64,000 nucleotides of DNA from an uncultured Microthrixaceae bacterium (GTDB lineage: Bacteria; Actinomycetota; Acidimicrobiia; Acidimicrobiales; Microtrichaceae): contig CAVQQI010000010.1 of assembly GCA_963714875.1 (NCBI GenBank), positions 320,402-384,401 on the forward strand, read 5' to 3'. The notes under the pieces were generated by a model, which made no database searches, was not told where the DNA came from, and was given only the letters and a program-made list of their open reading frames with translations. A program made the translations under genes and the position numbers. How positions within the stretch are numbered: the stretch's first letter is position 1; the number at the start of each line of letters is the position of its first letter. Positions 43,819 to 63,011 of this stretch are shown here, in pieces.

Positions 43819-43966
43819 GTCGGCGGCACGTCGGCGGTGCGACAGCGGTGCGGTGGATCAGCGGTGGGTGTGGCGGGAACCGGGGCGATCAGGGACGCCT
43901 GATCAACGTGGTGGGCCCGGTGGGGCGGACGAGCCGCCCCACCGGGCCTGGGTGTGTGCTGGGAGC

Positions 43967-44545: not shown

Positions 44546-45085
44546 TGCTCTTGCTCTCCTTGGGTTGGTCCGGTGGTTCCGGATCGCAGCGGCGTTCGCC
44601 GGCGCAGGAATCACTGTCGGGGACCCACCTCAAGACCACAGGAGGTCGAACCTCAAGATCTGCTCAAGTCCTCGGTACGGGTCCCGGTCCGGTCCGGTTC
44701 CGGTGCGGGCCCCCCGCCCGAGAGCGCACTGGCGACAGCGGCCTGGCGTGGGGACGGACACCATGTCGGGTCCGTCCGGAACCCGCACGCTGTTGGAGAT
44801 CGACCGGGCCAACCCCGACTGGAGCCTCCAGAGCGGACCGGTCTGGTCAGCCGACTTCGCCTGGGTCATGACCTGGGACGGGCGCCTGCTGCTCACCACC
44901 GACGGCAAGGAGCCCAGCGACACGCGTCCTGGCCGAGGGAGCATCGTGGTCGCCGTACGGCGAGGAGGTCCCGAACTTCTCGATCCTGGGCGACGACGTC
45001 GAACTCGGCTGAATCTGCGCCGTTCAGGAACTCGATCTCCCGAGCAGCACACGCAGCGTCGGACGTGGGATCGAAGGAGCGCTGG

Positions 45086-45130
45086 CAGAGCCCGAGAGGA
45101 GAATCGAACTCCTGACCTGCTGTTTACAAG
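45086..45130. repeat. attL/attR-type direct repeat: 45-bp exact copy of the 3' half of tRNA-Thr (identical to 62936-62980)
   Basis: Exact 45/45 identity (cagagcccgagaggagaatcgaactcctgacctgctgtttacaag). Flanking sequence diverges immediately on both sides. Confidence 0.8.
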
Positions 45131-45337
45131 TCGTGGGTCGAGTGTCCACCGAGTGCCGTTCAGGCCCGCCAGGTCGCGGAATCTGCGTCGACGTCTCACG
45201 TGATTCAACCGCTGATATCCGTGGTCGTCCAGAGATTCGTGAGACAAACCGTGAGACGCGATGCCTACGAGGTGGCGGACTACTCGAGGTCTCCAGCCGG
45301 GAACGGTGAGACTGGGTTCGGGTGGCCCCAGGACGCG

Positions 45338-46321
45338 ATGATGGACGCTGTGGAGGACTTCGTCGTCGCCCGGAATCCGGATGGGGATTCGGGGTTGCCG
45401 TATCTGGTTCGGCTGCCGTTGGGCGCTCACGGTGTGGTGCTGAAGGTGCGCGACACGTGGCCGCGCACCGCGAAGGTGTACTGCCACCCGTCGCAGGACT
45501 GGGACGACTCGGTCGAGGTGGTGGAGCGGGTGCCGGTGCGCTCGTGTGTGCGTCGCGGCGCGGCGATCGACCTGGTGCTGGACCGAGGCCGGGAGAACCG
45601 GTCGCAGTTCGTCTTCACCCGGGCTCGTGGTCGCGAGGTGATCTTCTGGCAGAGCGCTCGTACTGCGAAGCAGGCCCGGCCCGCAGTGAGCACGCCGACA
45701 CGACGCGCGTCCGGGTTGGTGCTCGACATCCTGGTCGACAGCCACGAGCGGTATCCGTGGAAGTTCAGCGCGCAGCAGGCAACGACCCGTCGGCAGGCGT
45801 TGCCGGCAGGTGACTACGCGGTCGAGCATCGACGGTCGGCGTCGTCGCCGCGGTCGAGCGCAAGAGCTTGGCGGACCTGTCCTCGACGTTGACGACCGGC
45901 AAGCTGCGCTACCTGCTCGCAGCGCTCGACGAACTGCCTCGTGCCGCGCTGGTGGTCGAGGACCGCTACTCGGCGGTGTTCAAGTCGACGTTCGTCGTCA
46001 CCGGGTGTGCTGGTCGAAGGTCTGGCCGAGGCGCAGGTCCGGTTCCCTGCGGTGCCGATCGTGTTCTGCGAGACGCGACCGTTGGCACAGGAGTGGACCT
46101 ATCGGTTCCTCGGCGCCGCGCTGGCGCATCACGCCGAGGACGCGCCGGCCGCCGAGCGTGCCGCGGAACTCCCGGCGGCTGGTCCGTTGGCGCCAGCGGA
46201 GCCGACCGCTGCGGAGATCCGTGCCTGGGCGAACGCCAACGGCCACCCGGTCTCCGCGAAGGGGCGCATCCCGGCGTCGGTGCGAGCGGCGTTCGACGCG
46301 TCGCGACGACGGCCGGGCTAG
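45338..46321 (+). CDS. ERCC4/XPF-like nuclease-fold protein fused to a C-terminal Lsr2-like DNA-binding domain (frame-interrupted)
   Basis: GDYAV...ERKSLADLSSTLTTGKLRYLLAALDELPRAALVVED gives an ERK-type nuclease motif. C-terminus PTAAEIRAWANANGHPVSAKGRIPASVRAAFDA resembles the Lsr2 C-terminal domain. Split over frames 45200, 45868 and 45941. Confidence 0.5.
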
Positions 46322-47166
46322 CGGCCGAGCTGGTCGAGGAGAAGGCGACCTGCGGTGGAGATCTCGACGGGCTCGAGGCGGCCTTGGACGGCGCTTGCGG
46401 CATTCGCCAGACGTGCGGTGCGCAGCGCGTCGTCGATGAACCAGCGCTCGACCCCTGCAGCGACGAGCGAGGCGAGATCGAACGGCGCGGACTGGAGCGC
46501 TCGGACTGACTCGTCGGAGCGAATCAGGTCGCCGGTGAGGCGGACGAGGTCGAGTGCGTCGCTCTCGCGCTTCGACAGCGACGGTCCCTTCCGGTCCGCG
46601 ATGGCGTGCAGCTTGCACGCGACCAGCGCAGGCACTGTCGCGACGGACAGTGTGCCCGTCTCGAGGACGGCGCCGTCGGGCGACACCGCATCGATCTCTA
46701 CGGGAGTCGCGCTGTCCAACGCCCATCGGTGGCCGACGACGAACAGCCGGTCGAGATCGGCATCAGGCAGGTCATCGCTGTGGTCAGGTAGCGGCCAGGT
46801 CGCCATGACGTCGACCTTCACGCCGTCGACCACGATTCGGTTCTGATCTGCTGCCTCTCCGTCCCCCAAGTACTGCAGCGCCAGGTCCCGAGGGCCTTCA
46901 CCTTCGGCAACCGTGTCAACGTCGTTCGTCGCTCGGTGCACGGTGGCGAGCCGGACGGTGACTGCCAGGCCGCCGACCAGCGCTGCCGGGTGAAATCGTG
47001 GCGTCTCGAACAGCGTCGTGGCCGTGCGGATCAGTCGGCTGATCGCGCCGTCGCCGGAGTCGATCAGTGCGACGTCACCAGACACGAACGAACCCCTTCG
47101 GCGGCTCCCACTGATCGAGCACTTCGCGCCCACGGGACGTGGCTGCGAGACCGAGCGCGCAGGCAA
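46318..47166 (-). CDS. AbiEii/AbiGii-type nucleotidyltransferase toxin (DUF1814-like)
   Basis: N-terminal ALVGGLAVTVRLATVHRATNDVDTV matches the GGtA...R.T.D(I/V)D NTase signature. Start uncertain because of an overlap with the upstream ORF. Confidence 0.55.
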   Translation of the reverse strand: MPARSVSQPRPVGAKCSISGSRRRGSFVSGDVALIDSGDGAISRLIRTATTLFETPRFHPAALVGGLAVTVRLATVHRATNDVDTVAEGEGPRDLALQYLGDGEAADQNRIVVDGVKVDVMATWPLPDHSDDLPDADLDRLFVVGHRWALDSATPVEIDAVSPDGAVLETGTLSVATVPALVACKLHAIADRKGPSLSKRESDALDLVRLTGDLIRSDESVRALQSAPFDLASLVAAGVERWFIDDALRTARLANAASAVQGRLEPVEISTAGRLLLDQLGR

Positions 47167-48136
47167 CCGGATGTGCGAGCGGCGCCCCGGCCCTCCTGGC
47201 GGGATAGCGGTCGTGGGTCAGCAGCCCCACCGGGTCGACCGCGAGCTCGATCGATGGCCGGGACTCGTCGGACGCCACCTCGCCGCCGACGATCTTGGCG
47301 CGACGGAGCGACTCGTCGTCGGGCACGAAGAGCAGCGTCGGGTAGTCGCCGGTCAGCACCAGCGGCGCACCCCAGGCCACGGCGCCACGTTCGCCAGCGA
47401 TCGCCCAACCCGCAGCGCTCAGGTCGTCGATGTTCGCTCCCAGACGCGGGTCCTTCAGGTCAGCGATCGACAACCGAGCCGACGTACTCCCAGCGGCCCA
47501 GACATCGGCGACGGCCCAGAACAGCTCAGGGGTCAGCGGACGGTATCTGCCCCGACCCACGCGTTCAGCGAGCTGCGCGTCACCCAGAGCCGACATCGCC
47601 CGGCTCACCGAACTGACGTCGAGCCCGGCGAGACGAGCGATCGCCGTGAGGGTCATCGGATCGTCGGGTCGCGTGAGGAGTCCCATGGCAGCGCTCAGGC
47701 CGGAGCGGCCGGCGATCGCCGTCGTGCTCGACCGGTCTGGGTCGAATCGGCTGGCAGGGGCGATGTCGGTATCGATGAAGAGGCCGTCAGCGACGAGCCG
47801 AAGGTGACCTCGGCGGTCGAGCCAACCGATGCCAGCGTCGTTGAGGATCGGCCGCAGCGACGCAGGTACCTGGTCCGCCACGACCATGTGGAACGTCCCG
47901 AGCTTGCGGTGGCCGACCTTGAATTTGGGCATGGCACCGGACAAGACCGACGCCGCGGTGACCTCGATCTCGGTCGGCGGGCGGGAGGGGCGCTCGACGA
48001 TCACGACGTCCGGTTGGTCAGGCTGGCGAACCGTGAGCCCGAGCGAGGTCGCTGCGTCCATGAACGTCTGGACTGCGTCTCGTTGGAGTTCAGCCTGCGA
48101 GGTGCGACTTCTCATGCGTCTTGAATTATAACGCAA
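47075..48136 (-). CDS. AbiEi-like antitoxin/transcriptional regulator (winged HTH) with N-terminal extension
   Basis: Central wHTH MTLTAIARLAGLDVSSVSRAMSALGDAQLAERVGRGRYR followed by an AbiEi-like C-terminal domain. Lies immediately upstream of the AbiEii-like gene and overlaps it. Confidence 0.45.
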   Translation of the reverse strand: MRYNSRRMRSRTSQAELQRDAVQTFMDAATSLGLTVRQPDQPDVVIVERPSRPPTEIEVTAASVLSGAMPKFKVGHRKLGTFHMVVADQVPASLRPILNDAGIGWLDRRGHLRLVADGLFIDTDIAPASRFDPDRSSTTAIAGRSGLSAAMGLLTRPDDPMTLTAIARLAGLDVSSVSRAMSALGDAQLAERVGRGRYRPLTPELFWAVADVWAAGSTSARLSIADLKDPRLGANIDDLSAAGWAIAGERGAVAWGAPLVLTGDYPTLLFVPDDESLRRAKIVGGEVASDESRPSIELAVDPVGLLTHDRYPARRAGAPLAHPVACALGLAATSRGREVLDQWEPPKGFVRVW

Positions 48137-48260
48137 GACACAAGATCTATCCGTTCTAGCCGATCACGTGCTCGCGAGACGGTCGAGGATCTCTCGGTCT
48201 TCGGCGATCACTTCGAGCAGGTTGCCTGCTCCGATAGGGCGCTGCGTCGAACCGCGGTCG

Positions 48261-49523
48261 TCAGGCGTGGGGCGTCGGGAGTTCCGCCTTGCGCGACTTC
48301 AGCTGTGCCACCACCGCGGCGGTGAGCAGGTGCGCGGTGACGACGGCGATCGCGATCGGGGCGGCGGTGAGGGGGCCGAGGCCGATGGACAGCACGGCGA
48401 TGAAGGTCAGGCCGATCGGGGCCTTGATGGTTGCTCCCGGCACGGCGGCCAGCATGGCGCCGACGGCGATGGCGTAGGGGATGTCAGGGATCGCGAGGTG
48501 GATCATCACGCCGGCCGTTCCACCCACGAACAGCATCGGGAGGACGTTGCCGCCGATGAACCCTGTCGCCAGGCTGAGCGCCATCGCCACCATCTTCCCG
48601 ACGACGACCGCGGCGAGCATCCAGAGGCTGATCGACGCGGAGTTGTCGATCACGGTGGTGAGCTGGTCGTTGCCGGCACCGACGGTGAGGGGAAGTGCGA
48701 CGGCGATGAGGCCGACCAGCGCTCCGCCAACCACGCCGCGCACGAGCTGGTTCGGCACCTTGTCGGCCGCCGCTTGGACCAGCTTGACGATGACGACGAA
48801 CGCGATCATGAGCACGCTCGCGGTGATGCCGAGGCCGACGCCCATGAGGAGCTGTGTGACGCGGAACTCCTCGACGGGGATCGCGAAGCTGTTGAGGAAC
48901 GTCGTGCCGACGACTCCGAAGAACACGGCGAAGGCCACGGTCGCGGCGATGAGCTGGGCCAGGATCCCTTCCATGTAGCGCTGCTTGGGAATCGGGGCGA
49001 GCTCGCTGACGATCAGGGTGCCCAGGCCCGGAGAGGTGAACGCTCCGCCGAAGCCGCCGGAGATGCCTGCCATCGTCGCGTCGAGGCGTGCCGACTCGTT
49101 GCCGGGCCACCATCGGGACGCGATCCACGAGCCGAGGCCTCCGCCCATCATGATCAGGGCGAACGACGGGCCGAGGCTGGCTCCGGCGACCGCCGAGACC
49201 GCCGCCAATCCCACCCACGATGCTGCGACCCGATGGTCGACCTCGCCGGACTCGATGACGGCGACACCCCCGGGGACGTGCTCGGGGACCTTCCACCAGC
49301 CGCGCAGCGCGGTGACGATGAGGCCTCCGGCCGCGGTGACGGCGATCCACCACCAGTCACCGGACCATGCGTCGATCCGGGGGTCGCCGAAGACCAGGTC
49401 GGTCACCTTGCCCGTGGCTCCGAGATAGGCGAGGCCGAGCAGCCCGACGATGAGGCCCATGACGCCCGAGGCCACCAGCAGCTGCCGGTACCACGGCGTG
49501 TCGATCGGTATCGGCGTCGCCAT
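48261..49523 (-). CDS. ClC-type voltage-gated chloride channel / H+-Cl- antiporter family protein
   Basis: ~10 TM helices with GASLGPSFA and GGxxGxxxP segments typical of ClC selectivity regions. RBS-like gaggggaca precedes ATG 49523. Confidence 0.6.
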   Translation of the reverse strand: MATPIPIDTPWYRQLLVASGVMGLIVGLLGLAYLGATGKVTDLVFGDPRIDAWSGDWWWIAVTAAGGLIVTALRGWWKVPEHVPGGVAVIESGEVDHRVAASWVGLAAVSAVAGASLGPSFALIMMGGGLGSWIASRWWPGNESARLDATMAGISGGFGGAFTSPGLGTLIVSELAPIPKQRYMEGILAQLIAATVAFAVFFGVVGTTFLNSFAIPVEEFRVTQLLMGVGLGITASVLMIAFVVIVKLVQAAADKVPNQLVRGVVGGALVGLIAVALPLTVGAGNDQLTTVIDNSASISLWMLAAVVVGKMVAMALSLATGFIGGNVLPMLFVGGTAGVMIHLAIPDIPYAIAVGAMLAAVPGATIKAPIGLTFIAVLSIGLGPLTAAPIAIAVVTAHLLTAAVVAQLKSRKAELPTPHA

Positions 49524-49548
49524 CGTCTGTCCCCTCAGTACCTGGTGA

Positions 49549-51297
49549 TCACTCGATCGGGCGGCGAGGATGCAGCGTTGCATGCCGTTGGACCGCGGCG
49601 TCGATGTTGTCATGGACGCGATCGCGGTCCACCAGTTCGAAGAACCCGTCGCGTTCCAGCACCTCGAGGACCTGCGACTTCACCCGCGCGAGGTGCAGGT
49701 CGATGTCGTGGTCGATGCCAGCCTGAGCGATCGCGATCAGGACGTCGGCCCCTTCGGCGTCGATGAAGTTGACACCCTCCATGCTCAGGATCACCCCGTC
49801 GATCCCGGTGGGCGTCTCGACACGGATCTGGCGCAGGCGGTCGGACAGCGCGTCGGCGTTGACGAAGAAGAGGCCGCCGTCGAAGCGCAGGATCTTCACT
49901 CCGGGGATCGTCTCGCAGTCGTCGTGCTGTTCCAGGTCGTAGAACGCGTCGGTTCCGGGCTTGCGTCCCAGCTCCGGGATGTAGGGCAGCGCCGAGACGG
50001 CGACGAGCCAGATGATGGAGATTCCGACGCCGATGAAGACGCCCTGGAGGATGCCGAACGTCATCACTCCCAGAAGGGCCGCCAGGGCGGCCGCGAACTC
50101 GTAGGGCTTGACGAGGATCAGGCGTTTCATCTCGCCCACGTTCATCATCCCCAGCGTCACTGCTTGGATGATGACCGCGCCGAGGACCGCCTCGGGCAGG
50201 TTGGAGAAGAGCGGGGCGAGGACGAGCAGGGTGAGGATGACGAATCCCGCCTGGGCGAGGCTCGATACCTGTGACCTGGCGCCTGCGCCGTCGTTGACGG
50301 GGCTCTTGGAGAGGCTGCCGTTGTTGAAGACCCCCTGAAAGACGCTCGACGCGACGTTGGACATGCCTTGCGCGAGCAGCTCCTGGTTCACGTCGACCCG
50401 ATAGTTGTGCTTGGTCGCGTACTGGCGCACACCCGCGGTCGTCACCGAGAACCCGATGAGGACCAGCCCGACGGCAGCCCCGATCACCGTCTCCCAGTTG
50501 TCGACGATGAGCTGGAGGTCGGGGATCGACGGCGTCGGGAATCCGCGTGGGACCTCTGCCACGAGCGCGACGCCGCTGTCACCTAGGCCCCACACAACGG
50601 TCACGGTGATGCCCACGACCACCGCGACGAGCTCGGCCGGAACCTTCGGTGCCAGGAACTTGAGGCTGAACAACAACACCAGGGCCGCCCCACCCAGCAG
50701 GACGGTGGTCCGATTCGCCTCGGGGAGACTCGCCCCCCAGTTCCACAGCTTCTGCCATGTGTTCGAGCCGGACTTCTCGGTTCCCGTGAGCTTGAACAGC
50801 TCGCCCGAGACCACGTTGATGGCGACGCCGAAGATGAATCCCGTGAGAACGGCCGCCGACAGGAACTCCGCGATCCACCCCATCTTGAGCACCGCCATGA
50901 CGACGTACAACAAGCCCGCCACCAGCACCACGGCGGCCGCGATCGCCACCGCATCCTCGGAACCCGCTGCTGCGATGGACAACACCGCCGCACCCAGCAC
51001 CGGGGCGGTCGACGAGCCCGGGGTCTGCACCAACTGCTTGGAGGTCGTGAACAGCGCGAACGCGATCATGCCGAACGCAGCGGCGTACAGGCCGTTCTGG
51101 ACGGGCACGCCGCTCAGCGACGCGTAGCCCAGCGACGTCGGGACCGTCAGCGCCCACACCGACAGCCCGGCGATCACGTCGTTCTTCAACCACGACCGCT
51201 GGTAGTTCGGCAACCAGACCAGGCTCGGGATGAACCGCCTGATCGAACCGGGCTGCTCCGGCGCTCGTGCGGTGCTGGGTGCGTCGTCGGGTGTCAT
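49549..51297 (-). CDS. SulP-family anion (sulfate/bicarbonate) transporter with C-terminal STAS domain
   Basis: WLPNYQRSWLKNDVIAGLSVWALTVPTSLGYASLSGVPVQNGLYAA signature region. STAS region: GVILSMEGVNFIDAEGADVL. Confidence 0.9.
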   Translation of the reverse strand: MTPDDAPSTARAPEQPGSIRRFIPSLVWLPNYQRSWLKNDVIAGLSVWALTVPTSLGYASLSGVPVQNGLYAAAFGMIAFALFTTSKQLVQTPGSSTAPVLGAAVLSIAAAGSEDAVAIAAAVVLVAGLLYVVMAVLKMGWIAEFLSAAVLTGFIFGVAINVVSGELFKLTGTEKSGSNTWQKLWNWGASLPEANRTTVLLGGAALVLLFSLKFLAPKVPAELVAVVVGITVTVVWGLGDSGVALVAEVPRGFPTPSIPDLQLIVDNWETVIGAAVGLVLIGFSVTTAGVRQYATKHNYRVDVNQELLAQGMSNVASSVFQGVFNNGSLSKSPVNDGAGARSQVSSLAQAGFVILTLLVLAPLFSNLPEAVLGAVIIQAVTLGMMNVGEMKRLILVKPYEFAAALAALLGVMTFGILQGVFIGVGISIIWLVAVSALPYIPELGRKPGTDAFYDLEQHDDCETIPGVKILRFDGGLFFVNADALSDRLRQIRVETPTGIDGVILSMEGVNFIDAEGADVLIAIAQAGIDHDIDLHLARVKSQVLEVLERDGFFELVDRDRVHDNIDAAVQRHATLHPRRPIE

Positions 51298-51494
51298 GGG
51301 TCGCTCCTCATCGGCCTGACTGCGAAGCGGCGATCATCTGGGGTGGGCGTCACGAGAACTCCTCGGCCTCGGCCCGGGTGTCGACGTCATGGCTCATCGA
51401 ATCCTCCGAAGTGATCGCAGCCGTCGCTCCGCACCCGCTGCAGCGTGGTGCCCGAACCGATCACGGGCCGGACACCACGTCAGCAGGTGATGTG

Positions 51495-52022
51495 TCAGCC
51501 GTCGGCGTCGGCGTCCTTCTGGATCTCGTCGACGTCGGCCTCGATCTGCTTCTGCTGGACCTTGTCGGCCTGGCGCATCGCTGCTTCGACCTTCGCTCCC
51601 ATGTCGGAGGCGCCCACGACGACGAGCCCGGCCTGTCCGGCGTCGAGTTGCTCACCGAGCTCCTTCAGGTCGCTCCGACTCATTCCCGCCGCTGCGTGAC
51701 CGGCGAGTGCTCCGAGGCCGGCGCCGACGGCGGTGGTGCCAGCAAGCAGGCCGCCACCGATTGCAGCAGCCGGGAACAGCGCGACCACGAGTCCAGTGGC
51801 GAGGCCGAGTGTCCCGCCCCCGACGCCGCCGACCCGGGTCGGGGTCTCGTGCTTCTTGACGATCTTGACCTTGCCGTTGTCCTTGCGTTCGATGACCGCG
51901 GCGTCATAGGCATCGATCAGACCGTCCTGGACGTGGAGGTCGTGCACCGCCTGGTAGTCGGCCCTCGCTGCGTCCACGTTCGGGTACACCCCGACGTATG
52001 CGATGAATGTGTCCATTGCCAT
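51495..52022 (-). CDS. DUF1269-domain membrane protein
   Basis: MAMDTFIAYVGVYPNVDAARADYQAVHDLH...YDAAVIERKDNGKVKI, then Gly-rich TM segments. Confidence 0.55.
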   Translation of the reverse strand: MAMDTFIAYVGVYPNVDAARADYQAVHDLHVQDGLIDAYDAAVIERKDNGKVKIVKKHETPTRVGGVGGGTLGLATGLVVALFPAAAIGGGLLAGTTAVGAGLGALAGHAAAGMSRSDLKELGEQLDAGQAGLVVVGASDMGAKVEAAMRQADKVQQKQIEADVDEIQKDADADG

Positions 52023-52208
52023 GCGTTGTTCTCCTTGTTGGGATTCTGCGTTCTGGGTGTCCGGCGGTCCGGTGATGCAGCCCGGCCGTCGCGAGCAGAG
52101 TGACATCTGCGGCGATGCGACGGAAGCGATGCATCGGGATCGTGCTCAGGCGAGCAAGTCGGCCTTCTGCGCGTCGAACTCCTGGGCCGAGATGACACCC
52201 TGAGACCC

Positions 52209-52616
52209 TCAGCTGGCGTCGGAGATCCGTTGGATGTCACGGCCGTGCGCCGTGAGCGCCCAGATGATGGCAACGTCCAGCGCAATGACGAGGATCCCCC
52301 ACACCGGGTACCAAGGAAGCCACAGGAAGTTGACGACGGCGCTCAGCCCAGCGACCACGACGCCGACGGTTCGTGCTGCGGCGTTGCCGGTGAAGATGCC
52401 GAAGCCCGAGGCCAGGATGATGACGCCGAGGATCAGGTGGATCCAGCCCCATGTCGTGATGTCGAACTTGAAGATCCATTCGGCGCCAACCACGAAGAAC
52501 TCGTCGTTGAAGATTGCGACCAGGCCTGCGCACGCTTGGAAGAACCCGACGACCACCAGCACGACGCCAGCGAACGCCGCATAGCCAGCGGCCCATCCAC
52601 TCGGTTGCTCTGACAC
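52209..52616 (-). CDS. small integral membrane protein (4 TM, Trp-rich)
   Basis: 135 aa with four helices. Confidence 0.5.
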   Translation of the reverse strand: MSEQPSGWAAGYAAFAGVVLVVVGFFQACAGLVAIFNDEFFVVGAEWIFKFDITTWGWIHLILGVIILASGFGIFTGNAAARTVGVVVAGLSAVVNFLWLPWYPVWGILVIALDVAIIWALTAHGRDIQRISDAS

Positions 52617-52816
52617 GTCACTACCTCCTCGCGCTTCGGAACCTCCGTCGCGCTCAACGATGGATCGTAAGGTTGACCCGGCGAGATGGAATCACCCCCG
52701 CCGGGTGATGGAGTTGCGCTGGACTGCGAGGACAGCGCGGATTCATCCTCCCGCTCGCCACGCGCTCGCCCGGACGGCTTCCCGTAGGCTCGGCTGAACG
52801 AACCCTCGATGTGCGA

Positions 52817-55435: not shown

Positions 55436-55520
55436 CGTGACAGGTTGCCATGACCGGTGTCGGACCCAAGAAGTCAGCGGAGCTCAGACCGTCGGTGCCG
55501 ATTCTCTCCTGCTCGACCGC

Positions 55521-55739
55521 TCAACCGGAGGACTCGTCGCCGAGCCTCCGGACCTCGAGTAGTTCGACGTGGAAGTCCTGCAACCGGTGCAGTGCCCCGT
55601 GCAGCGCCGCCTCGTCCGGGAGCGCTCCCACCAGCCGCGACCGGTCGGGAAGGGACGGCTGGACTTCGAACCCCTCGAACTCGCCGAGCAACATCTCGCC
55701 AGCGGGACCCGCGATGACAATCTCGTAGCGAATGGACAT
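55521..55739 (-). CDS. hypothetical small protein (72 aa)
   Basis: ORF with good GC3 bias, 86 nt upstream of the LAL gene. Confidence 0.3.
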   Translation of the reverse strand: MSIRYEIVIAGPAGEMLLGEFEGFEVQPSLPDRSRLVGALPDEAALHGALHRLQDFHVELLEVRRLGDESSG

Positions 55740-56072
55740 GGGTCACAGCATGTTCGACCCACCTCGCGTACCCCTCACCCGCGCCGGGTGATTCCTCGGC
55801 GAGATCGCTCGGTCTCGGCAGGGTCCGCTTCGGTCGTATGGGGCAAGCGGCTCCACCTAGGTCGGCCGCTTCCACTCGGCGACCGCTGATGCGAGGTCCC
55901 TGTCGTCGGTGTTCACCCTGCGCGGGTGATGCAGCGTCGCCCGGCAACTCCCATACTCGATGGCGCGTCCCAACATTCGTCGAGAGTCCTGAGGAGCCGT
56001 TCTGATGACCCGGAACAGCCAGATTCAGCAGGAGCAGGCGGGGGATGCGAGAAGCCGACGATTGGATGCCGT

Positions 56073-56531
56073 ATGACCAATGACCCGCTCGACGAACTGG
56101 GACCGGTCGACTTCGTCATCATCGAATTCCCCGCCGGTGAGGCGAACTTCACCGGCGAGGCGGCGGCAGAACTCGCGGCGCTGATCGAGGCGGGCACCAT
56201 CCGCCTTGTCGACCTGCTCATCCTCACCAAGGACGACGATGGGAACGTCGACGCGGTGGAGCTGGCCGATCTCGACGACCTGGGCCCGTTCGAGGCACTC
56301 GAAGCAGAGCTCGCCGAGTTCCTGGCCGAGGATGACGTCGAGCACCTGGCCGCGGCCATGGAACCCGGCTCGGTCGCCGGTGTGATCGTCTACGAGAACC
56401 TCTGGGTGGCGCCGTTCGCGTCCGCTGCTCGCCGCGCCGGAGGACAGCTGATCGCCAACGGTCGCATCCCGGCCCAAGCCATCATCGCAGCCATCGAGGC
56501 GGACGAAGCACTCGAAGCGCAAGGAGCCTGA
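56073..56531 (+). CDS. DUF1269-like soluble protein (acidic, Ala/Glu-rich C-terminus)
   Basis: MTNDPLDELGPVDFVIIEFPAG...GTIRLVDLLILTKDDDGNVDAVEL resembles the DUF1269 N-terminal fold. Confidence 0.5.
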   Translation: MTNDPLDELGPVDFVIIEFPAGEANFTGEAAAELAALIEAGTIRLVDLLILTKDDDGNVDAVELADLDDLGPFEALEAELAEFLAEDDVEHLAAAMEPGSVAGVIVYENLWVAPFASAARRAGGQLIANGRIPAQAIIAAIEADEALEAQGA

Positions 56532-56726
56532 TATGCCAGTACGACCAGGACGAAGGGGACGAGCAGGAGTCGTCGGCGCTCCCGTTGCCAAGGCTGCCGT
56601 CGTCACCAAGGCCGTCACCCCGGGACCCTCACCCGTCGCGAAGGCCGCTGTCGTGGGCGCCGCCGTCACGCCGGGACGCGGTCGCCGGCGGCGTCGGATC
56701 TGACAGTTGCCCGGAGGGATATCGCG

Positions 56727-57233
56727 ATGGTGAAGCCAACCCCAAGTGGCGAGGTCTCCGAGGCCCGCCAGACCCAGCTCGGGCTCTACGTCACCTCCGG
56801 CGAGGCCCTCGGTCTGCTGAGCTCGGACGAGGGAGCCCGCTTGCTCGACGTCCGCTGCCCGCAGGAGTACGTGTTCGTCGGCCACGCTGAGGTGGCGGTC
56901 AACATCCCGCTGGCCACCGTCGCCGACGAGGTCGACCCCGCGACCGGTTCGTTGCGGTGGGTGCCCAACCCTCAGTTCGTCGAGCAGGTCTCCGACTGGG
57001 CGGACAAGGGCGACCTCATCCTCGTCACCTGCCGTTCCGGTGGCCGTAGCGCGATGGCGGTCAACGCGCTCGCCGGTGCCGGGTTCACGAACGCCTACAA
57101 CATCATCGACGGCTTCGAGGGTGACAAGGTCGACGACCCCACGAGTCCTGATCACGGCAAGCGACGCTGCAACGGCTGGAAGAACTCGGGCCTTCCATGG
57201 ACCTACGCCGTTGACCCCTCTCGCATGCGCTAG
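56727..57233 (+). CDS. rhodanese-like sulfurtransferase domain protein
   Basis: Active-site loop VTCRSGGRSAMAV with the catalytic Cys. Rhodanese fold. GGAGGG RBS upstream. Confidence 0.85.
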   Translation: MVKPTPSGEVSEARQTQLGLYVTSGEALGLLSSDEGARLLDVRCPQEYVFVGHAEVAVNIPLATVADEVDPATGSLRWVPNPQFVEQVSDWADKGDLILVTCRSGGRSAMAVNALAGAGFTNAYNIIDGFEGDKVDDPTSPDHGKRRCNGWKNSGLPWTYAVDPSRMR

Positions 57234-57287
57234 CGGCAGCACTAGCGGCCCACCCACGACCCCATCAACGCCAGGAGAACATCCCCG

Positions 57288-58451
57288 ATGACCGAACAGC
57301 GAGTATCGACCACCGTTCCACTGGACTGGAACGAAGTGTGGTTCACAAATTGCCCGATGGTGTCGGCGAACAACGTCGACCAGGAATTGGGGTGGTGTCG
57401 TGAGGAGTTCAAGAAGATCGGGGTCGAGTACGCCTACTTCCGCCACGCACCCGAGAACAACTGGTACCCGCACTACATCCACAACCTCGACAACCTGATC
57501 CGTTTCGGCGGTCTCTACCCGCCGATCCACGTCCACGCGGACCTCCGCCGCACCGTCCTGCTCGGGGCGACGTGGGTGCACGAAGGCGGATGCATGGCCG
57601 TGCGTGCACGGGACGGAATCCACCGCATGGAGCACCTGCGCGGGAAGAAGGTCGGCATCTCGAAGAGCCTGAACACCATCAAGAACGACTGGTGGCGGAT
57701 CCAGGAGCACATGGGCATCGAGAACATGCTCATGCTGAATGACATGACGATGGACGACATCGAGCTGGTCGAGTTCCCCTATGCGGACGACTGGTACGAC
57801 AAGCCCGAGATGCTCACGCCGCCGATGAACAACCCCTCAGAGCTGTGGATGCGACGCGACCACAAGCACGACCTGGCGTTTCGACCCCTCGAGAACGCCC
57901 TGCTCGGCGGAGTTGTTGACGCCATCTACACGCAGAGCAAGCCCTTCCAGCACCTCCAGGAGGCGACTGGCAAGATCACGATGATCGAGGACCTCTCCAG
58001 GCTTGCCGACTGGACCATCCAGGTCGCCAACACGCCCGCCGTCATCACCTGCACCCAGGAGATGGCCGACGAGCACCCCGAGCTCGTCCTCGCCTACATG
58101 CGGGCGATGGTGAAGGTCGGCAGGTGGGCCAACGAGCACAAGCGCGCAGCGGGCGCGATCCTCAACCGCCAGACGTTCTACCTCGACGCCGAGGACACCT
58201 ACCAGGGCATCAAGCACGTCGACATGGTCCCGAGCCTCAATGCGCAGAACATCGAGACCGTCAAGATCGGCAAGGACTTCATGGTCAGCCACGGCTACAT
58301 CAAGAACGACTTCGACGTCGACGAATGGGCCCGACCAGAGTTCCTCGAGCAGGCCTCCAAGCAGGTCCTCGAAGAAGAGTGGGAGCGTCGCAGTTGGAGC
58401 AAGCTGCCCGAAGGCGGCGCGCTCGAAGCCGAAGCCGTGCGGCTCGGTTGA
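57288..58451 (+). CDS. DszB-like (2'-hydroxybiphenyl-2-sulfinate desulfinase) / SsuA-NMT1-type periplasmic-binding-fold protein, apparently cytoplasmic
   Basis: N-terminus VWFTNCPMVSANNV aligns with the DszB catalytic-Cys region (SNCPVPNALL). C-terminus WARPEFLEQASKQ aligns with WAAPEFLNNSLNR. No signal peptide. GC is visibly lower than surrounding genes. Confidence 0.7.
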   Translation: MTEQRVSTTVPLDWNEVWFTNCPMVSANNVDQELGWCREEFKKIGVEYAYFRHAPENNWYPHYIHNLDNLIRFGGLYPPIHVHADLRRTVLLGATWVHEGGCMAVRARDGIHRMEHLRGKKVGISKSLNTIKNDWWRIQEHMGIENMLMLNDMTMDDIELVEFPYADDWYDKPEMLTPPMNNPSELWMRRDHKHDLAFRPLENALLGGVVDAIYTQSKPFQHLQEATGKITMIEDLSRLADWTIQVANTPAVITCTQEMADEHPELVLAYMRAMVKVGRWANEHKRAAGAILNRQTFYLDAEDTYQGIKHVDMVPSLNAQNIETVKIGKDFMVSHGYIKNDFDVDEWARPEFLEQASKQVLEEEWERRSWSKLPEGGALEAEAVRLG

Positions 58452-58970
58452 CCCGCCACCCCGTGGTCCGGCGCGATGTACGCCCGCGCCGGATCACCAG
58501 CGGCCGCTGCTCGCCAAGCCCAACGCGAAGGGCCACCGTCTGTTGCGTCATCCTCGATCATGGCCCGCCCGGTGCTTCAGCGGAGGCCGGTCCCGCCGGG
58601 TGAGGCCGCGGAAATCTGGCGCCGCGCGCAGGAAAGCGATTCCGCTGGGGGATCGCGGGTGCCCTCAAGGTGCCGGCAGGGGCTCCCCGCGACCGTCGAC
58701 GTTCGCCGGGAGCCTTGACCGGCCGGTCTCGCTCGGCAGCGCGATTCGGCGGTCCTCAGCTGGTGATGCGCGATGGCGACGCGGGGTTGACCGCGCTCGA
58801 GTGAAGCCCACAGAGATGCACCGGGGTGACCGGGACTCTGACCACGCGCTCGACCGGTGTCTCGACCGCACCGATTTCTCCGCTCGGCGTGTCGTTGACT
58901 TGCGCTTAGGAGGGTGTGGAACGAGCGAGCGTCAGCACGCAGGGTGCGGCCGTCGGTGGGGGCTGCTCGT

Positions 58971-61614
58971 GTTGAGCGTGCACCGGTTGGGGGCCGGGTC
59001 GGAGGGCTACTACCTGGACCAGGTCGTGGCCGGGGTGGAGGACTACTACGCCGGCGCGGGCGAGGCGCCGGGTGAGTGGCTCGCCTCGTCCGCGCTGCTG
59101 GGTCTCGAGGGCCGGGTTGATCCGGATGATCTGCGGGCGGTGCTGCTCGGTGTGGATCCCGGTTCGGGCGACGGGTTGCATCACGGGTCGGGTCGGTCAG
59201 TGCCGGGTTGGGATCTGACGTTCCGTGCGCCGAAGTCCGTCAGCGTCCTGTGGGGCCTCGCTGACCCGGAGATCGCGGACGTGGTCGTGGCGGCGCATGA
59301 GGCGGCGATGCAGGTCGGGCTCCGCTACGTCGAGGAGTGGGCGGGGTTCACCCGCACCGGCCGAGGCGGCGCAACCCGGGTCCGCGGCGGACGGGCTTGA
59401 TCGCGGCGGGGTTCCGGCATCGCACCTCGCGTGACGGCGACCCGCACCTGCACACTCATGTGCTGGTGGCGAACTCGGTGCGCACGCCGGACGGGCGGTG
59501 GCGGACGTTGGATGGCCGCGGGTTGCTGGTGCACATGAAGACCGCCGGCTACGTCTACGACGCGCAGCTGCGCCACGAGCTGACCGAACGCCTCGGCGTC
59601 GAGTGGGGCCCGGTCGTCAACGGGCTCGCCGATATCGAGGGCATCGACGCCGAGGTGCGCGAGCTGTTCTCGAAACGACGCAGCGCGATCGAGGACCGCA
59701 TGGCCGAATGGGGGCTCACCTCCGCGAGAGCAGCGGAGGTCTCCGCGCTCGACACCCGCCAGGCCAAGACCGGCCGGGTGGAGCACACAGACGAGCTGCG
59801 CGACCGGTGGCGCACCGAGGCCGCCGAGATCGGCTGGACCCAACGGGATCTGCTCGGAGCGTGCCCGGCCGTGTTGACCGGTCAACACCACTCGACCGCG
59901 GCCGCGTTCACCGGTCAACGCCACTCGACTGCTGGCGCGTTCGACCGGTCAACGCCACCGAGGGGCTGGCGGTCACGGGTGACCAGGCGCTGATCCGTCC
60001 GGTCAACACGGGGCTGAGGTGCCGTGGTCAGGGGTGACCAGCCGTCTGACCACCTCGTCGACGCTGCGTTCGAGGAGATGTCGTCACCGGTCGGGTTGAC
60101 GGCGCACGCGTCGAGCTTCGACCGCCGCCACGTCATCCAGCATCTCGTCGACCACCTCCCACCAGGACCGCCCGCCGAATGGTTCGAAGCGACCGCGGAT
60201 CGGTATCTCGAACGTGTCGAGGTCGTCGCGCTCGGATCGGATCCGGTGAAGGGCGAGTGCTACTCGACCGTCGATCTGCTCGCGCTCGAACGACGCCTCG
60301 CCGACCAGGTCGCTGACCCGCGGTTGGGGGAGCGGTCACCGGAGGTGATGCCCTCGATCGTCTGGTCGGTGTTCGAGGAACGACCGTCACTGTCGGGCGA
60401 GCAACGGGACCTGATCGGCGACGTGTGCCGCAGCACCGACGCGGTGAGCGTGGTCGTCGCCGGGCCGGGGACCGGCAAGACGTTCTGTCTCGACGCGATC
60501 CGCGACACGTTCCAACGCAGCGGGTACACGACGATCGGCTGCGCCCTGTCCGCCTCCGCGGCGCATGAGCTCGAGCAGGGCTCGGGGATCGAGTCGATGA
60601 CGATCGCCCGGCTCCGAGGTCAGCTCGATACAGGCGAGCGGAAGCTCCGGGCCCGCAGCGTGCTCGTGGTCGACGAAGCGGGCATGGTCGGCACCCGAGC
60701 CCTCGCGCCGCTGCTCGACCACGCAGCGACCGCGGGAGCGAAGGTGATCCTCGTCGGTGACCCGAAGCAGCTACCGGAGATCGAAGCCGGCGGCTTCCTC
60801 CGCCACCTCGCCCAACACCACGAGGTGTCACTCGCTCACCGAGAACCGCCGTCAACGCGTCGGCTGGGAACGCGACACGATCAGCGACCTCGCCCACGGC
60901 CGAGTCGACGCAGCGCTCGAACGTATGACCGCGAACGACGGTGTCGTGGTCGGACACAACGCCGACCTGGTCCGACAACGCATGACCGACGACTGGTTCC
61001 GTCCACCGCAGCAGCGGGGCGTCTGCGGTGATGATGGCGAGCCGTAACAGCGACGTCGATGACCTCAACCGGCGAGCCCATCAGCTCATGGCCGACCACG
61101 GCCACCTCCACGGCGAGGCGCTCCACCTCGATGGCCGGCCGTTCCAGATCGGCGACCGCGTGGTGTGCCTGCGCAACGACCGGCGACTCGGCGTGCGCAA
61201 CGGCACCGTCGGCGACATCACCCACATCGACCACCAGCACCGCACCCTCACCATCGACACCCCCGACGGGACACGGCGGCGTACCGGGCGAGTACCTCGA
61301 CGATCGGGCATGTCCGTCATGGCTACGCCGTCACCATCCACAAAGCCCAAGGCATCACGTGTGACCACGCGCTGCTGCTCGGCAGCGACGAGCTCTACCG
61401 AGAGTCCGGCTACGTCGGACTCTCCCGCGGCCGCGAATCGAACCGGATCTACGCCGTCTCCACAGCACCCGACCCCGAAGCCCACATCCCCAAGCACCTC
61501 CGCACCGAACGTGAACCGCTCGACGTGCTCACCCACGCACTCGAACAAACACGAGCCCAGAAGCTCGGCATCGACCACGACGCCGAGCCCGATCTCGGGG
61601 CAGGTCTGTAAGGC
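58971..61614 (+). CDS. MobF/TrwC-TraA-type conjugative relaxase with C-terminal RecD-like helicase (multiple frame interruptions)
   Basis: N-terminus VLSVHRLGAGSEGYYLDQV...WDLTFRAPKSVSVLW. HxH motif DPHLHTHVLVANS. Helicase Walker A VVVAGPGTGKTF, then VLVVDEAGMV...ILVGDPKQLP. C-terminus ...GYAVTIHKAQGITCDHALLL. Pieces lie in frames 58240, 59337, 60024, 60757, 61028 and 61165. Confidence 0.7.
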
Positions 61615-61636
61615 GGTGCCGACCGCCCTCGGATCG

Positions 61637-62790
61637 TCAGCCGGGCCGTGGACGGTCGCCGTGCCACACGCGGTCGCCGATGACATCGGCGGATCGGGCA
61701 TCTGACTCCTGGACCCAGTGGGCGTAGATGTTCGTCGTCGTCGACGGGTTGCGGTGGCCGACGCGGCCGGAGACGCTGCGCAGTGGTACGCCGGCGTCGA
61801 GCAGCTGGGTGACCTGGAGGTGGCGCAGCCCGTGAAGGTGGATCCAGCTCGGCAGGTCCATCCGGTCGCGCAATCGGCTGAACGCCCTCGTCGCGCTCGA
61901 CGGGTGCAGCGGCTGGAGGCCGCCCGGTTCAGGTGCGAGCACGTACGCGTCGTCGCTCAGCTCGATGTCGCACAGTGCGCACGCTTTGGCGTGACGTTCC
62001 AGGTGGTCGAGCAACCAGTCGAGCGCGAACGACGACAGCGTGACCGTTCGGTGCTGGTGGGTCTTGGTGTCTTTCTCGTAGACGACGTTCGTCTCACCGA
62101 TCGCCGCCTCGATCCGAACCGTGCCTGCGTCTCCGTCGACGTGCCGCCAACGGAGCGCGCACAGCTCGCCGCGGCGCGCTCCTGTGTCGGCAGCGAGCAC
62201 CATCAGTGTCGCGAGCGTCGGGTTCACCTTCGACGCTTCGTCGATCATCGCCCGTGCCATGTTGATCGGCACCGGCTTCGGGTTCGAGGTGTGCTGTCGG
62301 GGCGGACGCGCGTCTCGACCGACGTTGACCGCGACCCAGCCCCAGCGCTTCGCCTGGTCGAGCACCCGGCACAACAGGATGTGACAGCCCCGCACGGTCG
62401 AGCGCGAGTAGCCCGGCCTCGACCAGCGCGCCGTAGAAGCGGTCGAGGTGCTCGGCGGTCAGGTGCGACAGCCGACGGGACCCGAGCGCCGGGAGCACGT
62501 GGCACTCGGCCGAGGTGCGGTAGCACGCGCAGCGTCGTCGGCTCGAGCCCCTCGAGCTCGGCCTGGCGCAGTCCTGCCTCGACGGCGTGCGCGACCGTGC
62601 GCTGTCCGACCGACACCTGGCCACGTGCGGACTTCGTGATCAGCTCGGCCAACGCGATGTCGGCCTCGCGGGAGGTGCCGTGGAAGGTCACCGACTTCTG
62701 TTGACGCTTGCGCGTCAACGGGTCCTCACCTGCGTCGACGCGCAGCTCCCAGGTCCCCGGAACTCGTCCCTTGCGCTTGTTGCCCTTCAT
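61637..62790 (-). CDS. tyrosine-type site-specific integrase (phage-integrase family), two frame interruptions
   Basis: N-terminus MKGNKRKGRVPGTWELRVDAG... The catalytic domain holds ...ARRGELCALRWRHVD...HGLRHLQVTQLL...IYAHW with the R..HxxR..Y catalytic residues. Adjacent to tRNA-Thr. Confidence 0.8.
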
Positions 62791-62935
62791 CCCGTCTCCG
62801 TTCTCGCACCGATTCGTGAGACGTCGGTGAGATTCCGTGAGACAGGGTGATGGTGAGGTCTCGACCGGTGTCTAGACCGGAGCCTGACCATCGCCGGAAA
62901 CCCTTGTGGCTACTGGGTTCCCGAGTGGGTCTGAA

Positions 62936-62980
62936 CAGAGCCCGAGAGGAGAATCGAACTCCTGACCTGCTGTTTACAAG
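62936..62980. repeat. second copy of the 45-bp att direct repeat (within the tRNA-Thr 3' half)
   Basis: Exact identity to 45086-45130. Confidence 0.8.
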
Positions 62981-63011
62981 ACAGCTGCTCTGCCAACTGA
63001 GCTACTCGGGC
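62939..63011 (-). tRNA. tRNA-Thr: tRNA-Thr (anticodon UGU)
   Basis: Manual fold. 7-bp acceptor stem GCCCGAG/CTCGGGC. D-arm GCTC-AGTTGGCA-GAGC. Anticodon stem-loop GCTGT-CTTGTAA-ACAGC. T-arm AGGAG-TTCGATT-CTCCT. 73 nt. CCA not encoded. Confidence 0.85.

What the first reader, a model, noticed from the sequence alone, without database searches (positions are those of the whole stretch)
45086..63011. ~17.9-kb integrative element in tRNA-Thr with perfect 45-bp att repeats and shared arm-type repeats
An exact 45-bp direct repeat (45086-45130 = 62936-62980) matches the 3' half of tRNA-Thr(UGU) at 62939-63011.

A tyrosine integrase (61637-62790) lies next to the intact tRNA, and a MobF/TraA relaxase-helicase (58971-61614) lies next to it.

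GATTCGTGAGAC and CCGTGAGAC motifs occur just inside both ends (45233-45257, plus an inverted GTCTCACG at 45193, and 62810-62843). This is the pattern expected for integrase arm-type binding sites.

There is a relaxase but no T4SS or FtsK-like Tra gene. That points to a mobilisable element (IME) rather than a self-transmissible ICE, unless transfer functions are missing or decayed.
Basis: seen in the sequence. Interest (0 to 1): 0.7.

Follow-up and report, generated by a model that had tools for sequence, protein, structure and literature searches.

The report
Mobilisable island in a tRNA-Thr gene
This is an ordinary integrated mobile element (integrase plus relaxase, no transfer machinery) sitting in a threonine tRNA gene of an uncultured Microthrixaceae bacterium; its mobility genes are broken in this assembly by single-base insertions that are most likely sequencing or assembly errors.

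Summary
An exact 45-bp direct repeat (45086-45130 = 62936-62980) is the 3' part of tRNA-Thr(UGU), from the anticodon loop to the end. It brackets a 17.85-kb, lower-GC island.

The island carries a tyrosine integrase next to the tRNA and a MobF relaxase-helicase next to the integrase. It has no T4SS, coupling protein, FtsK/TraB or Rep gene. CGTGAGAC motifs cluster inside both ends.

Relatives in other Microthrixaceae assemblies have the same integrase, motif block, tRNA-Thr and relaxase with different cargo. One assembly (L019) carries the same cargo at 99% identity beside different chromosomal genes. The reading as an integrative mobilisable element (IME) is therefore supported.

I judge these to be assembly artefacts:
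- They are private to this assembly.
- Two other assemblies with 'contig_N' names (L019 and L006; platform not known) carry different private indels.
- Four JGI/NCBI assemblies carry none.
- Lineage-specific substitutions keep the synonymous excess seen in intact genes.
- Chromosomal genes in the window are also frameshifted.

No empty site or circular form was found. This is a new member of a known kind, of modest interest.

The parts
45086..45130 (.). Distal att core: a 45-bp copy of the tRNA-Thr 3' part (a fragment only)
   Evidence: Exact repeat with no extension. No tRNA is called here.
45193..45313 (.). Distal arm: GTCTCACG (45193-45200, inverted), GATTCGTGAGAC (45234-45245), CCGTGAGAC (45249-45257) and a degenerate GGTGAGAC (45306-45313). 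These are candidate arm-type Int binding sites.
   Evidence: The same layout follows the tRNA-Thr fragment in L013. Binding is inferred, not shown.
45338..46321 (+). ERCC4 nuclease plus Lsr2 DNA-binding domain gene, interrupted by single-base insertions at 45829, 45840 and 45998
   Evidence: The repaired product reads through and is 90-94% identical to intact 322-331 aa homologues.
46318..47166 (-). AbiEii-like nucleotidyltransferase toxin (weak match)
   Evidence: Pfam AbiEii E=8.5e-5. PADLOC AbiEii E=6.6e-7.
47075..48136 (-). Winged-helix protein, a possible AbiEi-type partner
   Evidence: Only weak HTH matches. The role is inferred from its position.
48261..49613 (-). Cargo: CLC-type chloride channel/exchanger
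   Evidence: Voltage_CLC E=5e-32. Present in L019.
49549..51297 (-). Cargo: SulP-family anion permease with STAS domain
   Evidence: Sulfate_transp E=4.5e-81 and STAS. TIGR00815 sulP scores 353.9 bits, just below its 380.45-bit cut-off.
51495..52616 (-). Cargo: DUF1269 (51495-52106) and DUF7144 (52209-52616) membrane proteins
52817..55435 (-). Cargo: large MalT/LuxR-type ATP-binding regulator
   Evidence: GerE plus AAA_22. The MalT model matches partly.
55521..55739 (-). 72-aa ORF of unknown function
   Evidence: No family match. Also called as a gene in L019.
55926..58451 (+). Cargo: DUF6325 (55926-56531), rhodanese (56727-57233) and an SsuA/NMT1-like substrate-binding protein (57288-58451)
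   Evidence: The last protein is identical in L019.
58800..58925 (+). Candidate oriT: non-coding blocks conserved in four relatives (58809-58852, and 58901-58922 TGCGCTTAGGAGGGTGTGGAAC), lying 45-160 bp upstream of the relaxase start
   Evidence: Function is inferred from position and conservation only.
58969..61611 (+). MobF (TrwC/TraA-type) relaxase-helicase. It carries six single-base insertions (59385, 59396, 60828, 60999, 61281, 61304). Its linker (59866-60030) is variable, with a 33/34-bp tandem repeat and two in-frame stops.
   Evidence: The closest intact homologue, P0001, passes NCBIfam MobF (250 bits against a cut-off of 100).
61637..62790 (-). Tyrosine integrase, with single-base insertions at 62412 and 62525. 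The catalytic R, H-x-x-R and Y are present.
62811..62843 (.). Proximal arm: GATTCGTGAGAC, GGTGAGAT and CCGTGAGAC at 10-11 bp spacing, 20-55 bp upstream of the int start
   Evidence: The block is 100% conserved in L003 and L005, and its 33-nt core is exact in L016.
62936..62980 (.). Proximal att core, inside the intact tRNA gene
62938..63011 (-). tRNA-Thr(UGU), the integration target, intact

Best explanation
The 17.85 kb between the two 45-bp repeats is an integrative mobilisable element (IME) of an uncultured Microthrixaceae (Acidimicrobiia) genome.

Likely mechanism (inferred unless stated):
- A lambda-type tyrosine integrase recombined the element's attP with the anticodon-loop-to-3'-end segment of tRNA-Thr(UGU). 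This regenerated the tRNA and left a 45-bp copy at the far end. The anatomy is shown; the reaction is inferred.
- CGTGAGAC repeats about 60-130 bp inside each core are the probable arm-type sites for the integrase N-terminal domain.
- After excision, the MobF relaxase would nick a conserved oriT-like stretch just upstream of its own gene. It would then pilot one strand through the coupling protein and T4SS of a helper conjugative element, because the island has none of its own.
- Cargo is anion/sulfur transport (CLC, SulP-STAS, rhodanese, SsuA-like), a MalT/LuxR regulator, an AbiE-like toxin-antitoxin pair and an ERCC4-Lsr2 nuclease.

The element belongs to a family that shares int, arm block, tRNA-Thr and relaxase, and swaps cargo.

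The 11 single-base insertions that break int, the relaxase and ERCC4-Lsr2 in this record are most likely consensus errors of a metagenome assembly. They arise in the module that many co-occurring elements share. The element is probably intact in the cell.
For: Anatomy:
- Exact tRNA-derived repeat and a single intact tRNA.
- Island GC is 67.6% against 70.8% for the rest (Mann-Whitney p=7e-7).
- Int and the MobF relaxase are identified by Pfam, NCBIfam and close homologues.
- No transfer or replication genes in any island ORF.

Family:
- L003, L005 and L016 have relaxase, then 3-4 kb, then int, then the motif block, then the tRNA-Thr core, at 85-89% DNA identity with unrelated cargo.
- L006 has relaxase abutting int, as in the window.
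- L013 shows the same distal-arm layout.
- L019 has the same cargo at about 99% identity, and shares only 81 nt beyond the tRNA.

Frameshifts as artefacts:
- All 11 are +1 insertions and none is a deletion.
- Deleting them restores full-length int and ERCC4-Lsr2. The relaxase also reads through apart from two in-frame stops in its linker.
- None is present in L019, which has its own set, including a 2-nt insertion inside the tRNA.
- Private 1-2 nt indels: window 8/0 (insertions/deletions), L019 12/4, L006 3/0, and zero in L002, L003, L005 and L016.
- The window's private substitutions are 42 synonymous to 23 non-synonymous in the relaxase and 12 to 6 in int. Intact relatives give the same ratios.
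- Private amino-acid changes at otherwise invariant columns are ordinary: 5, 4 and 0.
- A chromosomal MFS gene is also split: its pieces in four frames rejoin to a full MFS_1 match. A kinase-like gene appears to switch frame too, judged from translations.
Against: - No empty attB and no attP junction was found. The only syntenic relative (L007) diverges 410 bp before the repeat and has no tRNA there.
- Excision, arm-site binding, oriT and mobilisation are untested.
- No helper T4SS is in the window.
- The insertions are in the public record: P0132 is the truncated int ORF. They are not in long homopolymers. They cluster in a few genes while ORFs of 2027, 986, 884 and 872 aa are intact. Plain random error does not explain this clustering. 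My explanation, cross-recruitment of reads from related elements, is an inference I could not test without reads.
- ERCC4-Lsr2 is an ordinary chromosomal gene in other Actinomycetota and lies outside the distal att in L013. The left part of the island may therefore have a more complex history.
Confidence: 0.75

Rival explanations
1. A genuinely decaying, immobilised island. After fixation, the host kept the useful cargo while int, the relaxase and ERCC4-Lsr2 were inactivated by real frameshift mutations. This would be a cis-mobilisable or dead remnant.
For: - Frameshifts hit the backbone genes, while 11 kb of cargo is intact and 99% identical to L019 with one indel.
- The mobility module is 4-8% divergent from L019, against about 1% for the cargo.
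- The truncated int ORF is what the public annotation carries.
Against: - All 11 events are insertions and none is a deletion. From general knowledge, bacterial pseudogenes are deletion-biased.
- There is no excess of non-synonymous or private substitutions on the window's branch.
- The perfect 45-bp cores and a 100% conserved arm block are retained.
- Different private indels occur in the two other 'contig_N' assemblies, and none occur in four JGI/NCBI assemblies.
- Chromosomal genes are frameshifted too.
Confidence: 0.12
2. A remnant of a self-transmissible element (a T4SS-type ICE or an actinomycete AICE) that lost its transfer module by deletion.
For: - Relaxase and integrase abut with nothing between them, whereas L003, L005 and L016 have 2.5-4 kb of extra genes there.
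- The 2017 IME review (PMC5704250) listed no canonical IME with a MobF relaxase.
Against: - None of the relatives shows VirB4, T4CP, FtsK/TraB or Rep genes within 10 kb upstream of the relaxase or between the relaxase and int. Their genes there are defence-like or of unknown function.
- L006 and L019 have the same compact arrangement.
- The closest plasmid relaxases are on 12-45 kb Corynebacterium plasmids.
Confidence: 0.08
3. An assembly chimera: the contig was mis-joined at the int-relaxase-tRNA module shared by several genomes, so the element's right junction is not real.
For: - The same island has a different right flank in L019 and L006 beyond 81 nt.
- The shared module is exactly where consensus quality collapses.
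Against: - Both att cores and both arms are present, and they match in a single record.
- int-tRNA-Thr adjacency is seen in four other assemblies.
- Even if the flank beyond the tRNA were mis-joined, the element itself and its target would stand.
Confidence: 0.05

Closest known systems
Canonical IMEs (tyrosine integrase plus own relaxase, no T4SS or coupling protein), e.g. NBU1/NBU2 of Bacteroides in tRNA-Leu/tRNA-Ser (Guedon et al. 2017, PMC5704250)
   Same: - Integration into the 3' end of a tRNA gene, with a direct repeat that regenerates the gene.
- Integrase at the tRNA-proximal end.
- A relaxase but no mating-pore genes.
- A toxin-antitoxin pair and adaptive cargo.
- Size under 20 kb.
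   Different: - The relaxase is MobF with a fused helicase. The review lists only MobP, MobQ, MobV and MobC for canonical IMEs, and a single actinobacterial example (ATE-1, MobV).
- The host is an uncultured Acidimicrobiia lineage.
- No helper is known and no transfer has been shown.
Actinomycete ICEs (AICEs such as pSAM2 or SLP1; named from general knowledge)
   Same: - Actinobacterial host.
- Tyrosine integrase targeting a tRNA 3' end.
- Similar size.
   Different: AICEs move double-stranded DNA with an FtsK-like TraB and carry a Rep. Neither is present here. The window has instead an HUH relaxase-helicase for single-strand transfer.
MobF relaxases of small Corynebacterium plasmids and the TraA_Ti/TrwC family
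   Same: The domain order is the same: TrwC relaxase, then AAA_30/RecD-like helicase, then SH3_13. The homologue P0001 passes the NCBIfam MobF and TrwC relaxase-domain models. From my own reading of the sequence, the YY...DYY and HxDxxxHxH-type motifs are present.
   Different: Identity to the best plasmid relaxases listed from PLSDB is only 31-33%, and every match is below 60%. The gene is chromosomally integrated, and no cognate T4SS is known.
Lambda-type (arm-binding) tyrosine integrases targeting the tRNA anticodon loop (sublocation classes of Williams 2002, from memory)
   Same: - The identity block starts at tRNA position 32 and runs to the 3' end.
- Repeated arm motifs lie on both sides.
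- There is a weak Arm-DNA-bind_4 signal at residues 13-56 (E=0.048, below the cut-off) and a SAM-like domain.
   Different: The arm-binding domain is not significantly detected. No excisionase gene was identified.

Membership tests
Integrative mobilisable element (IME, canonical type) | Site-specific recombinase gene at one end | tested here: met
   A tyrosine integrase lies at 61637-62790, next to the tRNA. It has the Phage_integrase domain and is 91% identical to the intact P0121. As assembled, it is interrupted by two single-base insertions.
Integrative mobilisable element (IME, canonical type) | Flanking direct repeats (attL/attR) derived from the target gene | tested here: met
   Exact 45-bp repeat equal to tRNA-Thr positions 32-74 plus 2 nt.
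Integrative mobilisable element (IME, canonical type) | Own relaxase and/or oriT | tested here: met
   The MobF relaxase is present. It is interrupted by six insertions as assembled. The oriT is only a conserved candidate at 58800-58925.
Integrative mobilisable element (IME, canonical type) | No mating-pore (T4SS) and no coupling protein | tested here: met
   Pfam scans of all island ORFs show no VirB4, VirD4/TraG or FtsK domains.
Integrative mobilisable element (IME, canonical type) | Excision to a circle and mobilisation by a helper element | not testable with these tools
   No attP or attB was found in the scans I could run. There are no reads and no culture.
T4SS-type ICE | VirB4 ATPase, coupling protein and other mating-pore genes within the element | tested here: not met
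   None in 45131-62935.
Actinomycete ICE (AICE) | FtsK/SpoIIIE-like TraB translocase and a replication initiator | tested here: not met
   No FtsK_SpoIIIE or Rep domain in any island ORF.
MobF relaxase family | N-terminal TrwC-type HUH relaxase domain scoring above the curated cut-off | tested here: met
   The Pfam TrwC match is split over two window ORFs (profile positions 5-136 and 135-285 of 286). The 91%-identical intact homologue P0001 scores 250 bits on NF041492 MobF (cut-off 100) and 164.7 on TIGR02686 (cut-off 145.5).
Arm-binding (lambda-type) integrase system | Arm-type repeats on both sides of the core, and an N-terminal arm-binding domain | tested here: inconclusive
   Repeats are present on both arms and conserved in relatives. 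The Arm-DNA-bind_4 match is below threshold (E=0.048, 13.7 bits against 22.3). Binding was not tested.

The most novel reading that the evidence does not exclude
The single-base insertions are real. In that case int, the relaxase and ERCC4-Lsr2 (and some chromosomal genes) carry multiple +1 insertions yet still evolve under purifying selection. This would require an insertion-only mutational process of very recent origin in several co-occurring populations. The alternative would be some form of recoding (transcript- or ribosome-level frame correction) that keeps the genes functional.
Probability: 0.04. Interest if true: 0.85.

Novelty: new member of a known kind. Interest (0 to 1): 0.3.

Why it matters
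The island adds a concrete, well-delimited example of a MobF-relaxase IME family in Acidimicrobiia (Microthrixaceae, which includes sludge-bulking filamentous bacteria). A 2017 review listed no canonical IME with a MobF relaxase and only one actinobacterial IME.

The family shuttles variable cargo into tRNA-Thr(UGU): anion and sulfur transport here, defence-like genes in relatives.

There is also a practical point. Frameshifts in this and sister metagenome assemblies pile up in modules shared by related elements. Anyone calling mobile-element genes 'decayed' or 'pseudogenised' from such assemblies would be misled.

Tried and rejected
- Empty-site search. The left-flank peptidase M73 protein was used against genome contigs and metagenome contigs. 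It gave only L001 and L007-L009, none with a tRNA next to the gene. L007 is syntenic only up to 44676.
- Exact look-up of the flank protein and of the truncated int ORF: not on record.
- attP junction pattern in viral contigs: no match.
- A second, degenerate att copy inside the island, which would indicate a tandem composite: none with at least 28 of 45 matches.
- Cargo homologues in the relatives fetched by then (L001-L009): none. L019, fetched later, does carry the same cargo.
- Selective decay of the mobility genes. I considered this first and then rejected it as the main reading, on insertion-only polarity, substitution pattern, assembly-specific indels and frameshifted chromosomal genes.
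- ERCC4-Lsr2 as a conserved backbone or defence gene of the family. Not supported: it is an ordinary chromosomal gene in L017 and L018, lies outside the element in L013, and has no PADLOC match.
- Excisionase: no candidate was found. The 72-aa ORF has no family match.
- Homopolymer explanation for the insertions: rejected. Only 2 of the 11 extend a run.
Full report
**Observation**

The window is high-GC (about 70%) actinobacterial DNA. ARAGORN finds a single tRNA, tRNA-Thr(TGT), at 62938-63011 on the minus strand.

The repeat finder returns an exact 45-bp direct repeat, 45086-45130 = 62936-62980. It cannot be extended by one base on either side. On the tRNA strand the repeat starts at position 32, the first base of the anticodon loop. 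It runs to the 3' end plus two bases.

The left copy is a fragment only. No other copy with at least 28 of 45 matches exists in the window. The 17.8 kb between the repeats has 67.6% GC against 70.8% for the rest (p=7e-7 on 1-kb windows).

**Gene content**

Pfam, NCBIfam and PADLOC scans give the following, from left to right:
- ERCC4 nuclease fused to an Lsr2 DNA-binding domain (45338-46321, +)
- an AbiEii-like toxin and a winged-helix partner (46318-48136, -)
- a CLC channel, a SulP-STAS permease, DUF1269 and DUF7144
- a large MalT/LuxR regulator and a 72-aa ORF
- DUF6325, rhodanese and an SsuA-like binding protein
- a TrwC/MobF relaxase with AAA_30 helicase and SH3_13 domains (58969-61611, +)
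- a convergent tyrosine integrase (61637-62790, -), whose start faces the tRNA

No ORF carries a VirB4, coupling-protein, FtsK/TraB or Rep domain.

**Motifs**

All five exact CGTGAGAC copies in the 64 kb lie just inside the two ends: 45193 (inverted), 45238, 45250, 62815 and 62836. Degenerate GGTGAGA(C/T) copies lie at 45306 and 62826.

The count alone is not above chance (5 against 7.6 expected). The placement is, and so is the conservation. The 47-nt block holding the int-proximal copies is identical in the window, L003 and L005, although the surrounding DNA is about 87% identical. In L013 a tRNA-Thr 3' fragment is followed by two inverted and two direct copies, in the same layout as the window's left end.

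The 10-12 bp spacing and the 60-130 bp distance from the core fit arm-type integrase sites. Binding itself is an inference. The N-terminal arm-binding domain is detected only below threshold.

**Family**

A repaired relaxase finds intact 839-853 aa homologues at 84-91% identity. A repaired integrase finds P0121 (383 aa, 91% identity, 144 members named Microthrixaceae). It also finds P0132, which is the window's own truncated ORF in NCBI/ENA.

Related loci:
- L003, L005 and L016 carry relaxase, 2.5-4 kb of other genes, integrase, the motif block and the tRNA-Thr core. DNA identity is 85-89% for these modules only. The remaining genes are unrelated and often defence-like.
- L006 has relaxase abutting integrase, as in the window.
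- L019 (ENA ERZ25039600) carries the very same island. The cargo from 47.3 to 58.4 kb is about 99% identical, with one indel in 11 kb. Beyond the tRNA only 81 nt are shared. After that the window has an MFS gene, while L019 has the TetR-AurF-Aldedh-Coq4 genes also seen in L006.

This is the best comparative sign that the island moves as a unit. A chromosomal rearrangement, or a mis-join at the shared module, cannot be excluded.

**Frameshifts**

Neither mobility gene is one ORF. tblastn with intact homologues places the integrase in three frames and the relaxase in five or more.

DNA alignments show that every break is a single extra base in the window:
- 59385, 59396, 60828, 60999, 61281 and 61304 in the relaxase
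- 62412 and 62525 in the integrase
- 45829, 45840 and 45998 in ERCC4-Lsr2

Deleting these 11 bases restores full-length proteins. The exception is the relaxase linker (59866-60030). That stretch holds a 33/34-bp tandem repeat, is hypervariable among relatives and carries two in-frame stops.

**Real decay or artefact?**

I first read the pattern as decay of mobility genes with retention of cargo. Five results argue against that.

1. Polarity: 11 insertions and no deletions.
2. No relaxed selection. At columns invariant in all the other sequences, the window has 5 (relaxase), 4 (integrase) and 0 (ERCC4-Lsr2) private amino-acid changes. These lie within the range of intact homologues. Its private nucleotide changes are 42 synonymous to 23 non-synonymous in the relaxase and 12 to 6 in the integrase. 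Intact relatives give the same ratios.
3. The insertions are assembly-specific. L019, the same island, has none of them. It has 12 private 1-2-nt insertions and 4 deletions of its own, plus a 2-nt insertion in the tRNA that stops ARAGORN from calling it. L006 has three others. L002, L003, L005 and L016, which come from JGI or other NCBI assemblies, have none.
4. Location. Between the window and L019, 39 of 40 indels lie in the 4.4-kb relaxase-int-arm-tRNA module. Many elements of the community share this module.
5. Chromosomal genes are also broken. An MFS gene at 22.9-24.5 kb is spread over four frame segments, which together give a complete MFS_1 match (3-346 of 347). A kinase-like gene at 18.8-20.0 kb also appears to switch frame, judged from the six-frame translations.

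The most economical reading is consensus error where reads of related sequences mix. I could not test this without reads. The errors are not homopolymer-type, and several very long ORFs are clean. I keep about 12% for real recent inactivation.

**Mechanism**

The anatomy and family membership are shown. The rest is inferred:
- integrase-mediated recombination in the anticodon loop of tRNA-Thr, helped by the arm sites
- excision to a 17.85-kb circle
- nicking by the MobF relaxase at an oriT in the two conserved non-coding blocks (58809-58852 and 58901-58922) upstream of its gene
- transfer through a helper's T4SS
- re-integration in the recipient

From memory only, the second block (TTAGGAGGGTGTGGAAC) recalls the GGTGT/GG nick core of F-type MobF systems. 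This is a lead, not a test.

**Comparison with known systems**

The element meets the in-silico criteria of a canonical IME. It fails those of a T4SS-type ICE and of an AICE.

Guedon et al. 2017 state that known canonical IMEs had MobP, MobQ, MobV or MobC relaxases, none had MobF or MobH, and only one was actinobacterial. Later genome-wide surveys list thousands of IMEs, including in Actinobacteriota. A MobF IME is therefore a new member rather than a new kind. The best-matching plasmid relaxases listed from PLSDB are on small Corynebacterium plasmids, at 31-33% identity.

**Open points**

- No empty site or circular junction was found.
- The distal ends of relatives lie outside the DNA I could fetch.
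- ERCC4-Lsr2 is a very abundant and highly conserved gene: 7704 hits, and 72-94% identity among the 120 best. It sits among ordinary chromosomal genes in L017 and L018, next to tRNA-Val in L010, L011 and L014, and just outside the distal att in L013. In the window it lies inside the element, after the arm motifs. I have no explanation for this swap.

**Verdict**

The IME reading is supported. The mobility genes are broken in the record, probably not in the cell. This is a new member of a known kind, with interest 0.3.

Noticed in passing
window 22900-24540 (minus strand): A chromosomal MFS (EmrB-like) transporter gene is split over four frame segments. The joined pieces give a complete MFS_1 match (3-346 of 347, E=2e-39). 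This is frameshift damage outside the island.
   Followed up: yes
window 18800-19990 (minus strand): A kinase-like gene with a C-terminal membrane region appears to switch frame near 19575 and 19290, judged from six-frame translations. The joined sequence gives only sub-threshold kinase-family matches (Pkinase 27.9 bits against a 31.7 cut-off). It may be another interrupted chromosomal gene.
   Followed up: partly
window 45338-46321; L010, L011, L013, L014, L017, L018: The ERCC4-nuclease plus Lsr2-DNA-binding fusion protein (about 322 aa) is very abundant and highly conserved in Actinomycetota (7704 hits, 72-94% identity among the 120 best). It often lies beside tRNA-Val or tRNA-Thr island boundaries. 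It has no PADLOC match, and no paper in the library mentions both domains together. Its position relative to the att site is swapped between the window and L013.
   Followed up: partly
window 59866-60030: The relaxase linker holds three 33/34-bp tandem repeat units (a 48-nt expansion relative to relatives) and two in-frame stops. The region differs by 5-, 10- and 23-nt gaps from L019.
   Followed up: partly
L016 17789-17900 (IMG/VR UViG_3300048599_000546): A family element whose int-proximal 45-bp core is followed by only 4 nt of the tRNA and then unrelated DNA. No tRNA is found in 22.5 kb. This suggests tandem accretion or rearrangement at the tRNA-Thr site. The contig is filed as viral in IMG/VR.
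   Followed up: partly
window 63012-63092 against L019 15687-15767 and L006: Only 81 nt upstream of the tRNA are shared between the window and the otherwise identical island locus L019. The genes beyond are unrelated (MFS against TetR-AurF-Aldedh-Coq4).
   Followed up: partly
window 2950-11339 (minus strand): Two very large DUF11/pilin-like repeat surface proteins (884 and 2027 aa). Their stop-free ranges overlap by 350 nt. They could be one gene or two.
   Followed up: no
window 38536-44629 (minus strand): A signalling cluster (PAS hybrid histidine kinase with Hpt, a second histidine kinase, and an H-NOX/HNOB protein) lies next to an S26 signal peptidase and a camelysin-like peptidase M73. 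The cluster is syntenic at 82% with JGI contig Ga0105045_10000906 (L007) up to 44676.
   Followed up: partly
L003 and L005, 1-9900: Relatives of the element carry defence-like cargo: a PLD-helicase with DUF3427, thymidylate synthase with aGPT-Pplase3/ADDT, DndB and an nSTAND NTPase.
   Followed up: no
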